DNA of 64,000 nucleotides from assembly GCF_044324875.1 (NCBI RefSeq), contig NZ_CP172185.1; one strand, written 5' to 3'. Below the pieces are notes generated by a model. It was not told where the DNA came from and made no database searches. It saw nothing but the letters and a program-made list of their open reading frames with translations. A program made the translations under genes and the position numbers. Origin of the DNA: Escherichia coli (lineage in GTDB: Bacteria > Pseudomonadota > Gammaproteobacteria > Enterobacterales > Enterobacteriaceae). Shown in pieces: positions 12,682-19,184 of the stretch (positions within the stretch are counted from its first letter, which is position 1; each line of letters starts with the position of its first letter).

Positions 12682-13278
12682 TTAATCTGATCTCCGCTGC
12701 AACAATTTCGCCATATTAATCGACTCGACCAGCTGTGTCCTGTTGATCCGGGGTGAGTTGAGATCCATCACTTTTTGCCATAGTTCGATGGCTTGCGCGT
12801 AATTCGCCTGCATAAACGCATCGGAAGCCAGCAGCATCAGAGCGGTGATTTCGTTAGAGTCCAGCGCGAGGGCTTTGTCGATCATTGCGCGAGTCTGGGC
12901 GGTCATATGCTGGCTGGCCTGGTAATAAAGCACCGTCGCCAGCGCCGCATACAGTTCAGCGTTCTCACCACGTAGTTGCAACGCCTGACGGTACGCCAGC
13001 AGCGAATTGCTGTAATCGTTTTGCCACAGATAATACTCGCCCAGTAACGCCCATTGTTCGCTGTTTTGTGGATTAGCGCGGATTTTATCCTGCAATGCCT
13101 GAAGCTGCGCTTCCGGGGTTTGCTGGCTGGCAAACTGATGTAGCGGATCGCGCTGACGCTGATACTCCGCACGCACCGCCTGCCATTTTGGACTTAGCAG
13201 ATAACTGCCGACACAGAGAAATACCATCAATATCGTGAGTATTGTCAGCATTTTCACCGGTATTTGAGGCTGTTTCAT
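12682..13278 (-). CDS. nrfG: Nitrite reductase maturation TPR protein
   Basis: ORF 12682..13344 with probable internal start [11 protein letters not shown]; the start overlaps the nrfF stop. Confidence 0.8.
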
Positions 13279-13658
13279 CGCTTCGCCCTTACCCGCCAGA
13301 GGATCAGTATCATCAGCAGTAACAACACCACTGGCAGCGCCCACAACACCAGAGTCTGACCGGTTAACGGTGGGTTATAGCGAACAAAATCTCCGTAGCG
13401 TTCGGTCATCCAGCCAATGATTTCGACTTCACTTTTCCCCTCCGCCACCATGCTGTAAACCTGATGGCGCATACTGACCGCCACCGGCGCATTGGATTCC
13501 AGTAAGTTCTGATTCTGGCACTGCGGGCAGCGTAACTGGCTGGCAATATTTAACGCCTGTTCCTGTTGTTGCGGATTGGCGAATTGCCAGGTGTCTACAA
13601 CCTGAGCGCGCGCAAAACAGGTAAATAACAGCAGTAGCGTGAGAAGCCCTTTATTCAT
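13275..13658 (-). CDS. nrfF: Cytochrome c maturation thiol-disulfide protein (CcmH-like)
   Basis: 127 aa; LRCPQCQNQ motif; overlaps nrfE and nrfG. Confidence 0.85.
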
Positions 13659-15333
13659 CGCGCTTCCTCCCCCGCCATCCGCTTAACAATGCGCCCGCAA
13701 TCATCAACAATCCTCCCCCCCAGATCCAGCGCACACCGCTTTGTACATACAAACGAAAAGCGTAACGATCCGGCCCAGTTTTCTCCCCCATGACCGCATA
13801 CCAGTCATGGATGCCGTTCCAGCGAATTGACGGTTCCATCATTTGCTGACGGCGTGCTTCATAAAAACGCCGCTCCGGCGTTAATTCACCAATGCGTTGC
13901 TGATGGTCAAACAGCGCCACTATCGCTTTTTCGCTGGTGTAATTGCCTTTGGCTTGCAAATCGAGGCGCTCAAAACGGAAGGTGTATCCTGCCAGCGTCA
14001 CCTGCTGACCCGGCTGTAAATTCAGGCTGATCTCCTGACGGCTGACGCCGGAAACCACGATCCCTGCGGCAAATAACAGCACGCCCGTATGAGCTACCAG
14101 CGCCGGAAGCTGCGCGCGTTTGCCAGAGACAAACGTCGCCAGCACAATCACCACCAGCATCAGCAAACCAAACGGCAACGTCGCGCGGTTAAAATATGGC
14201 GCGCCAACGGAGAGGCGTCCCCAGCCCAGCAGGCCGTAAATCATCGGATAAAGCGTTCCCACCAGCACTACCAGTAGCACTGCGCAAAACAGCAACAGCG
14301 TAGCGAGGATTAACATTTCTCGCGATAACCCCGAAAAACGCACCGCCGGGCCACCGTCCCGCGCTCGCCAGCCATACAGAGCCAGAGACGCAAGGCTAAT
14401 CAGTGCAAACAGGCTGAACAACGGCACGGCGCGGACGTTATCCAGCGCGAACGCATGAACCGAAACCAGAATGCCAGAACGGACAATTAAGGTGCCCAAC
14501 AGCGACAGCATCAGAGTAACTATCGCCAGCAACAGCGACCAGTGGCGGAAAATCCCCCGCTGGCGAGTCAGGGACAAACTGTGCAGCAGCGCGGTGGCAG
14601 AAAGCCAGGGTAATAAAGAGGTGTTTTCCACCGGATCCCATAACCACCAGCCGCCCCAGCCCAGTTCGCAGTAGGCCCACCAGGAACCGAGGATGATCCC
14701 CGCCGTTAATGCACTCCAGCCAGGTAGTGCCCAGCGCCAGCAAATTCGGGCGCTGGCCGCATCAAACTCGCCGCGCAGTAAACTCGCCAGCGCCACGCTC
14801 GCCGCCACCATCAAACCGCCATAGCCAAGGTAAAGCAGCGGTGGATGAAAGATAAGACCAGGATGTTGCAGCATCGGATTGAGATCGCGGCCTTCGATTG
14901 CTGGTGGAAATATCCGCACGAAGGGATCGGACCACAGCACCACAAACAGTAGCAGCGCGGCGAGCATGAGAGATAAAACGGCTAATGTCAGCGGAAATAG
15001 CGGATCGGTTTGCTGCCGATAATGCCAGGCAAACAGCGCGCTCCAGGCGGAAAGCAACAGCACCCAAAGTAGCAACGAACCTTCATGACCGCCCCACACC
15101 GCCGCCAGTTTGAGTTCCCACGACAGCAGGCTGTAGCTATGTTGGGCGACATAAATGACCGAGAAATCGCTGATGAGAAAACAATACGTCAGTACGCCAA
15201 AGGCGAGCAGCAGGAGCGCGAACTGCGCCAGAATGCCGATGCAAGTGAGTCGCATCATGGCAGGCCAGCGCAACCGCACTCCCGCAAAGGCCGTCAACGG
15301 GGTCAACACGTTGACCCCGAGACTTAACAACAA
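13651..15333 (-). CDS. nrfE: Heme lyase (CcmF-like) for NrfA
   Basis: 560-aa polytopic membrane ORF; start position uncertain. Confidence 0.85.
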   Translation of the reverse strand: MLLSLGVNVLTPLTAFAGVRLRWPAMMRLTCIGILAQFALLLLAFGVLTYCFLISDFSVIYVAQHSYSLLSWELKLAAVWGGHEGSLLLWVLLLSAWSALFAWHYRQQTDPLFPLTLAVLSLMLAALLLFVVLWSDPFVRIFPPAIEGRDLNPMLQHPGLIFHPPLLYLGYGGLMVAASVALASLLRGEFDAASARICWRWALPGWSALTAGIILGSWWAYCELGWGGWWLWDPVENTSLLPWLSATALLHSLSLTRQRGIFRHWSLLLAIVTLMLSLLGTLIVRSGILVSVHAFALDNVRAVPLFSLFALISLASLALYGWRARDGGPAVRFSGLSREMLILATLLLFCAVLLVVLVGTLYPMIYGLLGWGRLSVGAPYFNRATLPFGLLMLVVIVLATFVSGKRAQLPALVAHTGVLLFAAGIVVSGVSRQEISLNLQPGQQVTLAGYTFRFERLDLQAKGNYTSEKAIVALFDHQQRIGELTPERRFYEARRQQMMEPSIRWNGIHDWYAVMGEKTGPDRYAFRLYVQSGVRWIWGGGLLMIAGALLSGWRGRKRDE

Positions 15334-15388
15334 CGCCAGAAAACCGACTTCAGGAAGGAATACGTCCAGAAACCACCTCTGTTCTGGC

Positions 15389-17013: not shown

Positions 17014-17582
17014 GGCTGCTCCTTAAGCAACGGAACAGACGCCGGGTTAAAGTTCGGATTGGTGCGCTGATCGCTGTGGCAATCGACGCAAATCTTAATC
17101 CGTCCTTTGTCACTTAACGTCTGCATCGTATCTTGCTGTGGATGCAGGGAATGGCAGCTGGCGCACACCACTTTGGTTACGTGGACATCGTGTGGCCAGA
17201 ACGCTTTTTGCAACTGTTCCGGCAGATGGCAGGACATACAGACGCTGTTCTGCTCTCCAACCTTGTACATCGGCTCGTTAAAGCGCATCACATCTTTCAC
17301 CCCTTCGCGGTGTTGCGGTGATGGCTGGCCGTGACAGTTGGTGCAGGTGACCGGCAGTTTGTTATTCGGGTTGATAACGGAAGCATGTTTGCCATGCATA
17401 CCTTCGGTATCTGGCTTATGACAGTCCAGACAGGCGGCATCCGGGTTACGCTGCTGGGTAACTTCGTAGCGATCACCAGATGCCTGCGCCGCAGGGGTAG
17501 CGGTAATTCCGTTCAGGCTCCACAACAGGCCCGACGCCAGCACCCCGGCAGTTAATAACGAACGTAATACGCTCATATTCAC
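17010..17582 (-). CDS. nrfB: Pentaheme cytochrome c
   Basis: Signal peptide and five CxxCH motifs (CLDCH, CTNCH, CMSCH, CASCH, CVDCH). Confidence 0.9.
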
Positions 17583-17620
17583 TCCATTGTGTTTTCCGCC
17601 CCTTGCGAGGCGGAACGGGG

Positions 17621-19057
17621 TTATTGGCTTAACAGACCGTTTTTACGTGCCTGCTCTTCCCACTGCGGGATCACCGTTTTGATGAAGTCCTGCTTCTCGG
17701 CCTTGATTTGTTCCATGTTCAGGCCAATGGCCTTCTGGGCTTTCTCTTTGGTCGAGATATCCGGGATCTGGATTTCATGGGTGATGCCTTTGGTTGCCAG
17801 CAGTCGCGCCAGTTTAGTGCGCGCATCCGCCGCTTTATCCATCGCCGTACCGAGCATCCTCAGACCTTCTTCCGGTGCGTGCATATGAATGCCGTGGGAA
17901 GCGATCGCCAGATCCCAACGCCACTGGGCATGACGGATATCGTCCTGAATAGGCTTCATTTCGGCTTCCGTCGCGCCTGCATCCAGCGCCGCTTTCGCTT
18001 CGAAGTGAGCGTGAACCAGTTGATCTTCAACCTTGATTTTCAGGTCGTTAATCGACTGCTTACGTTCCGCGACCACTTTTTGCAAGGCAGCTTTGTCCTG
18101 GGTATGGCAGTTCGCACAAGTCTGGGCGAAGTTATCAAACGGATTACCAATTTTATGGTCGGTGTAGAGTTTGCCTTCGGCGTTCTGCACTTTTGGCATA
18201 TGGCAATCGATACAGGTCACGTTGTTTTTGCCATGAATGCCCGCTGTCCAGGTTTCATATTCCGGGTGCTGTGCTTTCAGCATTGGCGTTTTCGACAGGG
18301 AGTTAGTCCAGTCAGAGAAGGCAATTTTGTCGTAATACTGCTCCATATTTTCGACTTTCATGCCGTCATCCCACGGGAATTTAACCGCTTTGTTTTTGCC
18401 GTCGAAGTAATACTCCACATGGCACTGACCGCAAACCATCGATTGCTGGTCGAAACGTCCGGCTTTCTCAAAAGGTTTACCAATGGCTTCCATCGCGCGA
18501 GCCGCATACGGACGGGAAAGGGTTAACTCCGGTTTGCCTTTGGCGAACTCTGGTGAGGCGGTGTTATGGCAATCGGCACAACCTAAGTTGTTGACGATTT
18601 CCGGGCCGCCGCGCGCCCATTTTCCGTGGAAGTAGCCATCTTCGCCGTCTTTCTGGATCAGACGCGCCACATCCGGGCTTTTACAACTCCAGCATGCCAT
18701 CGGTAGCGGACCATCTTCAGCGTTTTTCGGCGCACCGGTACGCAGGGTTTCACGCACATCGGTCACAGCAAAGGCATGTCCACGCGGCTTGTTGTAATCG
18801 CGCGAGAAGGGATACCCCGCCCACAGGATCACCAGCCGTGGATCTTCCGCCAGGGCGTCAACACGCTCTGACTGTTCCGAGGTGGCTTTCCAGGAGAGAT
18901 ATTGATCGGGATGTTGCGGGGCAAAGGTTTCATTCTTCGCTTCAACAGTTACAGGTTTTGCGGGAGCAGCCGTTTGTTCAGCGTGAACAGAAGTGAAAAA
19001 GAAAAAAGGAATCAATAAGCTGAAGATACGGCGTGCGTTTATTTTTATCCTTGTCAT
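17621..19057 (-). CDS. nrfA: Cytochrome c552 nitrite reductase
   Basis: CWSCK (CxxCK) heme motif plus four CxxCH motifs; ORF track starts at 19090 but the likely start is the internal Met ([10 protein letters not shown]). Confidence 0.9.
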
Positions 19058-19184
19058 AGGGGCTTCATCCGAATTGCGCCATTGTTGCAATGGCGGTTTT
19101 TATTGTTTTTCACGACAGTAACCGCACCTACACTGTCATGACATTGCTCACCCCTATGTGTAACAAATAACCACACTGTGAATG

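What the first reader, a model, noticed from the sequence alone, without database searches (positions are those of the whole stretch)
12682..19090. Complete nrfABCDEFG operon with CxxCK heme motif and overlapping gene junctions
NrfA carries the CWSCK lysine-ligated heme motif alongside CxxCH motifs, and NrfB has five CxxCH motifs. Four junctions overlap by 4-8 nt (nrfB/C, nrfC/D, nrfE/F, nrfF/G), indicating translational coupling. The dedicated heme lyase genes nrfEFG needed for the CxxCK site are intact.
Basis: seen in the sequence. Interest (0 to 1): 0.2.

Follow-up and report, generated by a model that had tools for sequence, protein, structure and literature searches.

The report
Intact E. 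coli nrfABCDEFG nitrite-reductase operon

Summary
On the minus strand, window 12682-19057 holds nrfA-B-C-D-E-F-G. It is gene-for-gene collinear with E. coli K-12 MG1655, with no indels, frameshifts or internal stops, and dN/dS is 0-0.14 for every gene. NrfA has CWSCK plus four CxxCH motifs. NrfB has five CxxCH motifs. The nrfB/C, nrfC/D and nrfF/G junctions overlap by 4 nt (ATGA), and nrfE/F overlaps by 8 nt. All seven products pass curated NCBIfam cut-offs. Mature NrfA equals PDB 1GU6 except for Q442K. The pnrf promoter, with its FNR site at -41.5 and NarL/NarP site at -74.5, is K-12-like.

- The operon is on the minus strand.
- Coordinate 19090 is the end of the maximal ORF; the real nrfA ATG is at 19057.

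One nuance concerns nrfE. It has no canonical start codon at its conserved N-terminus. RefSeq uses CTG at 15369 (572 aa), while K-12 annotates a GTG 20 codons downstream, which would remove most of the first transmembrane helix. Comparative evidence favours the long form.

Verdict: already known, low interest.

The parts
17621..19057 (-). nrfA: pentahaem cytochrome c552 nitrite reductase precursor, 478 aa. Active-site CWSCK at precursor residues 122-126 (133-137 in the maximal-ORF numbering), plus 4 CxxCH.
   Evidence: NF008339 872 bits against a cut-off of 595. Residues 27-478 equal PDB 1GU6 except Q442K. One aa difference from K-12, dN/dS 0.011.
17583..17620 (-). The 44-nt nrfA-nrfB spacer (17577-17620), holding a GC-rich hairpin (UUCCGCCUCGCAAGGGGCGGAA) with no U tract, followed by the nrfB Shine-Dalgarno sequence GGAG.
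   Evidence: sequence.: -18.1 kcal/mol, z -3.2, 0 of 200 shuffles fold as well. Its function (mRNA stabiliser or partial attenuator) is inferred only.
17010..17576 (-). nrfB: periplasmic pentahaem electron carrier, 188 aa, five CxxCH.
   Evidence: NF008659 309 bits against a cut-off of 184. Matches PDB 2OZY at E 3e-112.
16342..17013 (-). nrfC: Fe-S subunit, 223 aa, twin-arginine signal SRRQFL, four Cys clusters (16 Cys). Its ATG overlaps the nrfB stop by 4 nt.
   Evidence: Translation. TIGR03149 419 bits against a cut-off of 378. Identical protein to K-12. Junction.
15389..16345 (-). nrfD: integral-membrane quinol-oxidising subunit, 318 aa. Its ATG overlaps the nrfC stop by 4 nt.
   Evidence: TIGR03148 468 bits against a cut-off of 348.. 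The exact protein is on 103 public E. coli contigs.
13651..15369 (-). nrfE: CcmF-like haem lyase. It is 572 aa if translation starts at CTG 15369 (RefSeq/PGAP choice), 560 aa from TTG 15333, and 552 aa from GTG 15309 (K-12 annotation). WWD motif WGGWWLWD; His175, 263, 305 and 427.
   Evidence: NF007691 1158 bits, covering profile positions 1-573 of 573. H1 annotation. Alignment to CcmF. N-termini of relatives. The exact 572-aa protein is on 91 E. coli contigs.
13275..13658 (-). nrfF: CcmH-N-like thiol-disulfide oxidoreductase, 127 aa, CPQC motif. Its ATG overlaps the nrfE stop by 8 nt.
   Evidence: TIGR03147 209 bits against a cut-off of 159..
12682..13278 (-). nrfG: TPR protein (CcmI-like), 198 aa. 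Its ATG overlaps the nrfF stop by 4 nt.
   Evidence: NF007692 398 bits against a cut-off of 306. PDB 2E2E at E 4e-104..
19058..19240 (-). pnrf promoter and 93-nt leader. NarL/NarP 7-2-7 site TAACTCTAAAGTGGTA (19232-19217, centre -74.5). FNR site TTGATTAAAGACAA (19198-19185, centre -41.5). Inferred +1 at 19150. 18-codon ytcB ORF at 19210-19154.
   Evidence: The region is identical to K-12 except 19150 C>T and 19386 G>A. Site positions are from PMC5434802, mapped by me from the statement that +102 is the third base of nrfA codon 3. ytcB annotation is.

Best explanation
The region is the intact nrfABCDEFG operon of an Escherichia coli chromosome, transcribed on the minus strand from the FNR- and NarL/NarP-controlled promoter pnrf. 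Electrons from the menaquinol pool (supplied by formate dehydrogenase encoded elsewhere) pass through the membrane protein NrfD and the Tat-exported four-cluster Fe-S protein NrfC to the periplasmic pentahaem NrfB. From there they reach the pentahaem NrfA, whose lysine-ligated CWSCK haem reduces nitrite to ammonium in a six-electron reaction. The general Ccm system, which lies outside the window, attaches the haems at the CxxCH sites. NrfE (a CcmF paralogue), NrfF (like the N-terminal part of CcmH) and NrfG (a TPR protein like CcmI) attach the haem at CxxCK. The 4-8 nt start/stop overlaps at B/C, C/D, E/F and F/G probably couple translation within the two sub-blocks nrfBCD and nrfEFG. Shown here: gene content, motifs, integrity, family membership, synteny and promoter sequence. 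Inferred from the literature: electron path, haem-lyase specificity and regulation. Inferred from the sequence alone: translational coupling, and initiation of nrfE at CTG 15369.
For: The ORF map and translations come and the motif scan. The locus is collinear with K-12, with no indels or stops, and dN/dS is 0-0.14 in all seven genes. Every product scores above the curated NCBIfam cut-off of its Nrf family. NrfA, NrfB and NrfG match the solved E. coli structures 1GU6, 2OZY and 2E2E. NrfE keeps the WWD motif and the 4 His conserved with CcmF, and NrfF keeps CPQC. The locus is present in 5414 of 5426 complete E. coli genomes and annotated nrfA-G there. The exact NrfA, D, E, F and G proteins are already in public E. 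coli records. The promoter region is identical to K-12 apart from 2 SNPs, with the FNR and NarL/NarP sites at the published distances. The roles of NrfEFG are described in PMC12285233 and PMC3601427.
Against: Nothing argues against the identification itself. Four caveats remain. No activity or expression can be measured here. The ccm genes and the formate dehydrogenase that the pathway needs lie outside the window. NrfE carries 13 substitutions relative to K-12, including F243L inside the WWD motif, although this is at a position that the motif definition, as I recall it, leaves variable. The nrfE start codon is unresolved.
Confidence: 0.97

Rival explanations
1. The operon looks intact but is functionally impaired in haem-lyase function. 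NrfE would be made only as an N-terminally truncated protein (from TTG 15333 or GTG 15309) lacking most of transmembrane helix 1, or would be weakened by the F243L change in the WWD motif, so that the CxxCK haem is attached poorly.
For: There is no ATG, GTG or TTG between the in-frame stop at 15402 and 15333. F243L lies in WGGWWFWD.
Against: The nrfD-nrfE junction is base-for-base identical to K-12 and to strain 2012C-4221, and K-12 is the strain in which Nrf activity was characterised. The same 572-aa allele occurs on 91 public E. coli contigs. dN/dS for nrfE is 0.12. All four conserved His residues are present.
Confidence: 0.03
2. nrfE starts at the K-12-annotated GTG 15309 (552 aa) or at TTG 15333/15330, not at CTG 15369. 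On this view the upstream conservation reflects something other than coding, for example an RNA element or relaxed drift.
For: The curated K-12 annotation uses GTG. A GGGG run lies 5 nt upstream of that GTG. From general knowledge, CTG initiates poorly in E. coli. Some public E. coli records carry the 552-aa form.
Against: The 20 upstream codons encode LPEVGFLALLLSLGVNV, which aligns with the N-terminal helix of CcmF (MMPEIGNGLLCLALG) and with NrfE/CcmF relatives that start with canonical codons within 0-4 codons of this point. Five of the 7 E. coli/Salmonella differences in this stretch are synonymous. In Salmonella locus L003 the two TTG codons are CTG and TTA. NF007691 aligns from profile position 1. 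GAGGTGG sits 6 nt before the CTG and the nrfD stop is 19 nt upstream.
Confidence: 0.35
3. The 4-8 nt overlaps are simply the common compact arrangement of bacterial operon genes and do not impose obligatory translational coupling. Each gene would be initiated independently at its own Shine-Dalgarno sequence.
For: Every downstream gene has its own SD-like sequence 5-9 nt upstream: GGAG for nrfC, GGAGG for nrfD and nrfF, AAGGG for nrfG. From general knowledge, ATGA overlaps are very frequent in bacterial operons.
Against: None from this work. The two readings are not exclusive, and neither was tested here.
Confidence: 0.3

Closest known systems
nrfABCDEFG operon of Escherichia coli K-12 MG1655 (b4070-b4076)
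   Same: Same seven genes in the same order, with the same lengths, the same junctions and the same neighbours (acs divergent, gltP downstream). The whole 7109-nt acs-to-gltP interval aligns without a single gap. The promoter differs at 2 of 392 positions.
   Different: About 2.3% nucleotide divergence. There are 28 amino-acid substitutions in all (NrfA 1, NrfB 2, NrfC 0, NrfD 4, NrfE 13, NrfF 4, NrfG 4). One is C>T at the inferred transcription start and another is F243L in the NrfE WWD motif. K-12 annotates nrfE 20 codons shorter.
RefSeq/PGAP nrf annotation in other E. coli, e.g. strain 2012C-4221 (NZ_CP027437.1)
   Same: 98.5% identical over 6409 nt with no gaps. nrfE is annotated as 572 aa from the same CTG.
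   Different: 99 nucleotide differences, half of them in nrfE.
NrfHA-type nitrite reductase systems (Wolinella, Desulfovibrio)
   Same: A homologous pentahaem NrfA with a CxxCK active-site haem (PDB 1FS7 and 2J7A were hit at E 1e-131 and 3e-54).
   Different: According to PMC12285233, those systems use the membrane tetrahaem NrfH instead of NrfBCD, and System II maturation with NrfI instead of NrfEFG. The window has NrfBCD and NrfEFG and no NrfH.
Ccm System I haem lyase CcmF/CcmH of E. coli
   Same: NrfE aligns with CcmF over its whole length (239 identical columns), sharing the WWD motif and 4 His. NrfF shares the RCPxCQN motif with the N-terminal part of CcmH.
   Different: NrfE is about 75 residues shorter because of an internal deletion near residues 400-490 of CcmF. 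NrfF and NrfG are separate proteins, whereas E. coli CcmH is a fusion. The literature assigns NrfEFG specificity for CxxCK.

Membership tests
NrfA, ammonia-forming cytochrome c nitrite reductase (NF008339 / TIGR03152) | Whole-protein score above the curated equivalog cut-off | tested here: met
   872.2 bits against 595, and 825.8 against 692.5
NrfA, ammonia-forming cytochrome c nitrite reductase (NF008339 / TIGR03152) | One CxxCK active-site haem motif plus four CxxCH motifs | tested here: met
   CWSCK, CADCH, CGQCH, CIDCH, CANCH. Shuffles give a mean of 0.02 motifs.
NrfA, ammonia-forming cytochrome c nitrite reductase (NF008339 / TIGR03152) | Active-site and Ca-binding residues of the solved E. 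coli enzyme retained | tested here: met
   Residues 27-478 are identical to PDB 1GU6 except Q442K
NrfA, ammonia-forming cytochrome c nitrite reductase (NF008339 / TIGR03152) | Nitrite to ammonium reductase activity | not testable with these tools
   Needs an enzyme assay
NrfB pentahaem cytochrome (NF008659) | Score above cut-off and five CxxCH motifs | tested here: met
   309.1 bits against 184. Five motifs. PDB 2OZY at E 3e-112.
NrfC Fe-S subunit (TIGR03149) | Score above cut-off, twin-arginine signal, four Cys clusters | tested here: met
   418.7 bits against 377.6. SRRQFL and 16 Cys in four C-x2-C-xn-C-x3-C groups are visible in the translation. Identical to K-12 NrfC.
NrfD membrane subunit (TIGR03148) | Score above cut-off | tested here: met
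   467.6 bits against 347.6
NrfE haem lyase (NF007691, CcmF/NrfE family TIGR00353) | Score above cut-off over the full profile | tested here: met
   NF007691 gives 1158.4 bits against 394 over profile positions 1-573. TIGR00353 gives 822.8 against 569. A third model, TIGR03145 (631 positions), scores 598.6, below its cut-off of 927.3. So this is the enterobacterial short NrfE type rather than the type that model was built on.
NrfE haem lyase (NF007691, CcmF/NrfE family TIGR00353) | WWD haem-handling motif and the four histidines conserved with CcmF (H173, H261, H303, H491) | tested here: met
   WGGWWLWD at 238-245. His175, 263, 305 and 427 align with the four CcmF histidines.
NrfE haem lyase (NF007691, CcmF/NrfE family TIGR00353) | Complete N-terminal transmembrane helix with a usable start codon | tested here: inconclusive
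   The helix is encoded and conserved, but the only in-frame start-like codon ahead of it is CTG 15369. Initiation was not measured.
NrfF (TIGR03147) and NrfG (NF007692) | Scores above cut-off; CxxC motif in NrfF; TPR domain in NrfG | tested here: met
   209.3 bits against 159.2 and 397.9 against 306. CPQC at residue 44. PDB 2E2E at E 4e-104.
NrfF (TIGR03147) and NrfG (NF007692) | Requirement of NrfEFG for haem attachment at CxxCK | not testable with these tools
   Literature only: Eaves et al. 1998, cited in PMC12285233 and PMC3601427
E. coli-type nrfABCDEFG operon | Seven genes in the order A-B-C-D-E-F-G on one strand between acs and gltP | tested here: met
E. coli-type nrfABCDEFG operon | pnrf with an FNR site at -41.5 and a NarL/NarP 7-2-7 site at -74.5 | tested here: met
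   The sequence is identical to K-12 across these sites. Positions are from PMC5434802. Binding was not tested.

The most novel reading that the evidence does not exclude
E. coli, and at least one Salmonella lineage, make the NrfE haem lyase from a non-canonical CTG initiation codon 19 nt after the nrfD stop. Initiation would use the GAGGTGG Shine-Dalgarno sequence and/or re-initiation by ribosomes finishing nrfD. This would keep lyase output low and tie it to nrfD translation. The reference K-12 annotation (GTG, 552 aa) would then be 20 codons too short and cut off most of transmembrane helix 1. RefSeq/PGAP already annotates the CTG form, so only the experimental confirmation and the regulatory meaning would be new.
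Probability: 0.6. Interest if true: 0.25.

Novelty: already known. Interest (0 to 1): 0.08.

Why it matters
It matters little beyond correct annotation. The Nrf system is a well-studied route for anaerobic nitrite respiration and NO detoxification in enteric bacteria. This window simply shows that the strain has a complete, selectively maintained copy with K-12-type regulation and without the EHEC -10 up-mutation. The only point with practical consequence is the nrfE start. Anyone cloning or modelling NrfE from the K-12 coordinates would probably omit most of its first transmembrane helix.

Tried and rejected
- **Pseudogene or frameshift check.** Gene-by-gene comparison with K-12 and with the best E. 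coli hit found no indels or stops, so this was rejected.
- **RNA families in the locus.** Rfam gathering-threshold matches lie only outside the operon: SECIS_2, sraL and naRNA4.
- **Extra promoters or terminators inside the operon.** The consensus scan found no more sites than shuffled sequence gives: 4 promoter-like sites against 5.3 expected, and 9 terminator-like sites against 9.3. No convincing intrinsic terminator follows nrfG.
- **Plus-strand ORFs antisense to nrf genes** (for example 17708-18526 and 16117-16881). I treated these as shadow ORFs because none is annotated in K-12 or strain 2012C-4221. They were not examined further.
- **A structure around the nrfE CTG.** The fold is not distinguishable from shuffles (z -0.7).
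- **Source organism.** The best match among 5426 complete E. coli genomes is only 98.5-98.9%, so I suspected Shigella. However, the exact NrfD and NrfE proteins occur in records labelled E. coli, including a 5.75-Mb contig. It is therefore an E. coli lineage missing from the complete-genome set.
- **Literature on the nrfE start codon.** Two searches found nothing relevant.
- **The -10 hexamer.** PMC5434802 quotes TATACT for EHEC, and I could not reconcile this with my position count. I therefore state only that the window equals K-12 there, so it lacks the single-base EHEC change.

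
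Full report
**What is there.** Listing ORFs across window 11000-21000 shows seven consecutive minus-strand ORFs between 12682 and 19090. gltP (11027-12340, minus strand) lies downstream and acs (19450-21408, plus strand) lies divergently upstream. A megablast of 12682-19090 against 5426 complete E. coli genomes finds the locus in 5420 of them, and at 80% or more coverage in 5414. It is annotated there as nrfA, B, C, D, E, F and G. The best match is 98.5% identical, with no gaps.

**Gene boundaries.** Using the K-12 MG1655 and strain 2012C-4221 annotations, the genes are as follows, all on the minus strand:

| Gene | Window coordinates | Length |
|---|---|---|
| nrfA | 17621-19057 | 478 aa |
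| nrfB | 17010-17576 | 188 aa |
| nrfC | 16342-17013 | 223 aa |
| nrfD | 15389-16345 | 318 aa |
| nrfE | 13651-15369 or 13651-15309 | 572 or 552 aa |
| nrfF | 13275-13658 | 127 aa |
| nrfG | 12682-13278 | 198 aa |

12682 is the true nrfG stop. 19090 is an upstream TTG, 11 codons before the real nrfA ATG.

**Checking the observation.**
- The motif scan finds CWSCK plus four CxxCH in NrfA and five CxxCH in NrfB. Every cysteine of both proteins lies in one of these motifs.
- Shuffling each protein 20,000 times gives a mean of 0.02-0.05 such motifs and never more than 2, so five is far beyond chance.
- Each downstream start is preceded by a Shine-Dalgarno-like sequence.
- The two junctions not mentioned are gaps. 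nrfA/B is 44 nt. nrfD/E is 19 or 79 nt, depending on the start chosen.

**Integrity.**
- The whole 7109-nt interval from acs to gltP aligns with K-12 without a single gap.
- Every gene has the same length, start codon and stop codon as in K-12, and none has an internal stop.
- Divergence from K-12 is mostly synonymous, with dN/dS from 0 (nrfC) to 0.14 (nrfB). All seven genes are therefore under purifying selection.
- The exact NrfA, NrfD, NrfE (572 aa), NrfF and NrfG sequences are already present in public records labelled E. coli.

**Family membership.**
- Each product exceeds the curated NCBIfam cut-off for its Nrf family.
- Mature NrfA (residues 27-478) is identical to the crystallised E. 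coli enzyme 1GU6 except Q442K. NrfB matches 2OZY. NrfG matches the NrfG TPR structure 2E2E.
- NrfC shows the SRRQFL twin-arginine signal and four cysteine clusters, and is identical to K-12 NrfC.
- NrfE aligns along its whole length with K-12 CcmF. It keeps the WWD motif and histidines at the positions of CcmF H173, H261, H303 and H491. NrfF keeps CPQC.
- One model, TIGR03145, is not met: 599 bits against a cut-off of 927. It describes a longer NrfE type. The enterobacterial model NF007691 is met over its full length.

**How it works.** This part rests on the literature, not on tests made here. The reviews PMC12285233 and PMC3601427 describe NrfA as the periplasmic pentahaem enzyme whose CxxCK haem is the active site. 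They describe NrfE, NrfF and NrfG as paralogues of CcmF, the N-terminal part of CcmH, and CcmI, and state that NrfEFG are required for haem attachment to CxxCK. The Ccm system handles the four CxxCH sites. PMC3601427 also notes a report that NrfF is not essential. The Ccm genes and the formate dehydrogenase that feeds the quinone pool lie outside this window. The fdhF gene in the window, marked by its SECIS element at 8430-8484, encodes the formate-hydrogenlyase enzyme rather than the Nrf electron donor; that last point is from my own knowledge.

**Regulation.**
- PMC5434802 places the FNR site at -41.5 and the NarL/NarP site at -74.5 relative to the single pnrf start. It states that +102 is the third base of the AGG codon (nrfA codon 3).
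- From that statement I place +1 at window 19150.
- With +1 there, TTGATTAAAGACAA (19198-19185) is centred at -41.5, and the 7-2-7 sequence TAACTCTAAAGTGGTA (19232-19217) is centred at -74.5. The mapping is therefore self-consistent.
- The 392-nt acs-nrfA spacer differs from K-12 at only two positions, 19386 and 19150. The window therefore has the K-12-type -10 element and not the single-base EHEC improvement described in that paper.
- The 19150 C>T change falls on the inferred start nucleotide. The paper reports small effects of +1 and +4 substitutions. I did not pursue this.
- The 18-codon ytcB ORF annotated in K-12 is identical here.

**The nrfE start.**
- The nrfE reading frame is open from the stop at 15402, but its first ATG, GTG or TTG is TTG 15333. 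K-12 annotates GTG 15309. RefSeq/PGAP annotates CTG 15369.
- The 20 codons between these two points encode DVFLPEVGFLALLLSLGVNV. This aligns with the N-terminal helix of CcmF (MMPEIGNGLLCLALG).
- It also aligns with NrfE relatives that begin MDVLLPEAG and MHNLDIFLPEAG (Salmonella), MLPEIG (Atlantibacter) and MELILPELG (a metagenome).
- At the DNA level, one Salmonella locus (L003) also has CTG at the same codon. Another (L004) uses a TTG three codons upstream that overlaps the nrfD stop. The metagenomic relative (L005) has GTG at the same position.
- Five of the seven E. coli/Salmonella differences in this stretch are synonymous. In L003 the two E. coli TTG codons at 15333 and 15330 are CTG and TTA.
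- GAGGTGG lies 6 nt before the CTG, and the nrfD stop lies 19 nt upstream.
- I conclude that the long form is the more likely product, with probability about 0.6. The K-12 coordinates probably truncate the first transmembrane helix.
- This is already reflected in RefSeq. Most of the cluster members listed are 572 aa and a few are 552 aa.
- Two searches of the held paper library found no discussion of the point.

**Other features of the operon.**
- The nrfA-nrfB spacer folds into a stable GC-rich hairpin (-18.1 kcal/mol, z -3.2, 0 of 200 shuffles fold as well) with no following U tract. It could stabilise an nrfA-only transcript or partly attenuate read-through, which would fit a need for more NrfA than downstream products. 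That is inference only.
- The nrfA leader contains two hairpins. On the opposite strand the second one looks like an intrinsic terminator at 19077-19095.
- No Rfam family matches inside the operon. The consensus promoter/terminator scan finds no more sites than shuffles give.

**Source and surroundings.** The window is an E. coli chromosomal segment. Annotations under the matches run from mdtO/mdtP, yjcS and fdhF through gltP, nrf, acs and actP to uvrA, dnaB and plsB, ending inside the lamB-malK end of the maltose cluster. It is 96.4-97.8% identical to K-12 and at best 98.5-98.9% identical to any complete E. coli genome in the collection. The only large difference from K-12 is a 4.1-kb insertion at 39964-44040 between tyrB and alr. 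This is an IS3-family IS1397 interrupted by an IS21-family ISSso4.

**Verdict.** The locus is the well-known nrfABCDEFG operon, intact and conventionally regulated. Novelty: already known. Interest: low (0.08). The only point worth carrying forward is the non-canonical nrfE start, which public annotation pipelines already adopt but which, as far as I could find, has not been tested experimentally.

Noticed in passing
window 15309-15402 (minus strand): nrfE lacks a canonical start codon at its conserved N-terminus. CTG 15369 (RefSeq) and GTG 15309 (K-12) give 572 or 552 aa. The short form removes most of transmembrane helix 1. A Salmonella lineage shares the CTG.
   Followed up: yes
window 14641-14643 (minus strand; NrfE residue 243): The NrfE WWD motif reads WGGWWLWD, where K-12 NrfE and CcmF have WGGWWFWD. 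NrfE is the most diverged product of the operon, with 13 aa changes relative to K-12. The allele is on 91 public E. coli contigs.
   Followed up: partly
window 17583-17620 (minus strand): A stable GC-rich hairpin without a U tract lies in the 44-nt nrfA-nrfB spacer (-18.1 kcal/mol, z -3.2). It may be an mRNA stabiliser or partial attenuator that sets the NrfA:NrfBCD ratio.
   Followed up: partly
window 19150 and 19386: These are the only two differences from K-12 in the acs-nrfA regulatory region. 19150 (C>T) falls on the transcription start nucleotide that I inferred from PMC5434802. No complete E. coli genome in the collection has both changes (best match 99.7%).
   Followed up: partly
window 19077-19095 (plus strand) / nrfA 5' leader: The hairpin CGCCATTGTTGCAATGGCG followed by GTTTTTATTG looks like an intrinsic terminator on the plus strand, antisense to the nrfA leader. 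On the sense strand it is a leader hairpin just upstream of the nrfA ribosome-binding site.
   Followed up: no
window 19154-19210 (minus strand): The 18-codon small ORF ytcB (annotated in K-12 as b4821) is identical here. It overlaps the FNR site and core promoter of pnrf.
   Followed up: no
window 8430-8484 (plus strand): An Rfam SECIS_2 element (87 bits) lies inside fdhF, the selenocysteine formate dehydrogenase H gene.
   Followed up: no
window 28780-28920 (+) and 61524-61594 (-): Rfam matches to the sraL (RyjA) sRNA (153 bits) and to naRNA4 (76 bits).
   Followed up: no
window 39964-44040: A 4.1-kb insertion relative to K-12 lies between tyrB and alr. It is a nested pair of insertion sequences: an IS3-family IS1397 split by an IS21-family ISSso4 (istA/istB). 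Only one complete E. coli genome in the collection matches the whole nested arrangement.
   Followed up: partly
window 21427-21616: The acs-yjcH intergenic stretch does not align with K-12 by megablast (about 189 nt here against 163 nt in K-12). It may reflect a variable repeat element.
   Followed up: no
whole window: The best identity to any of 5426 complete E. coli genomes is only 98.5-98.9% in every segment tested, although the exact NrfD and NrfE proteins exist in E. coli draft or other records, including a 5.75-Mb contig. The lineage is absent from the complete-genome collection.
   Followed up: partly
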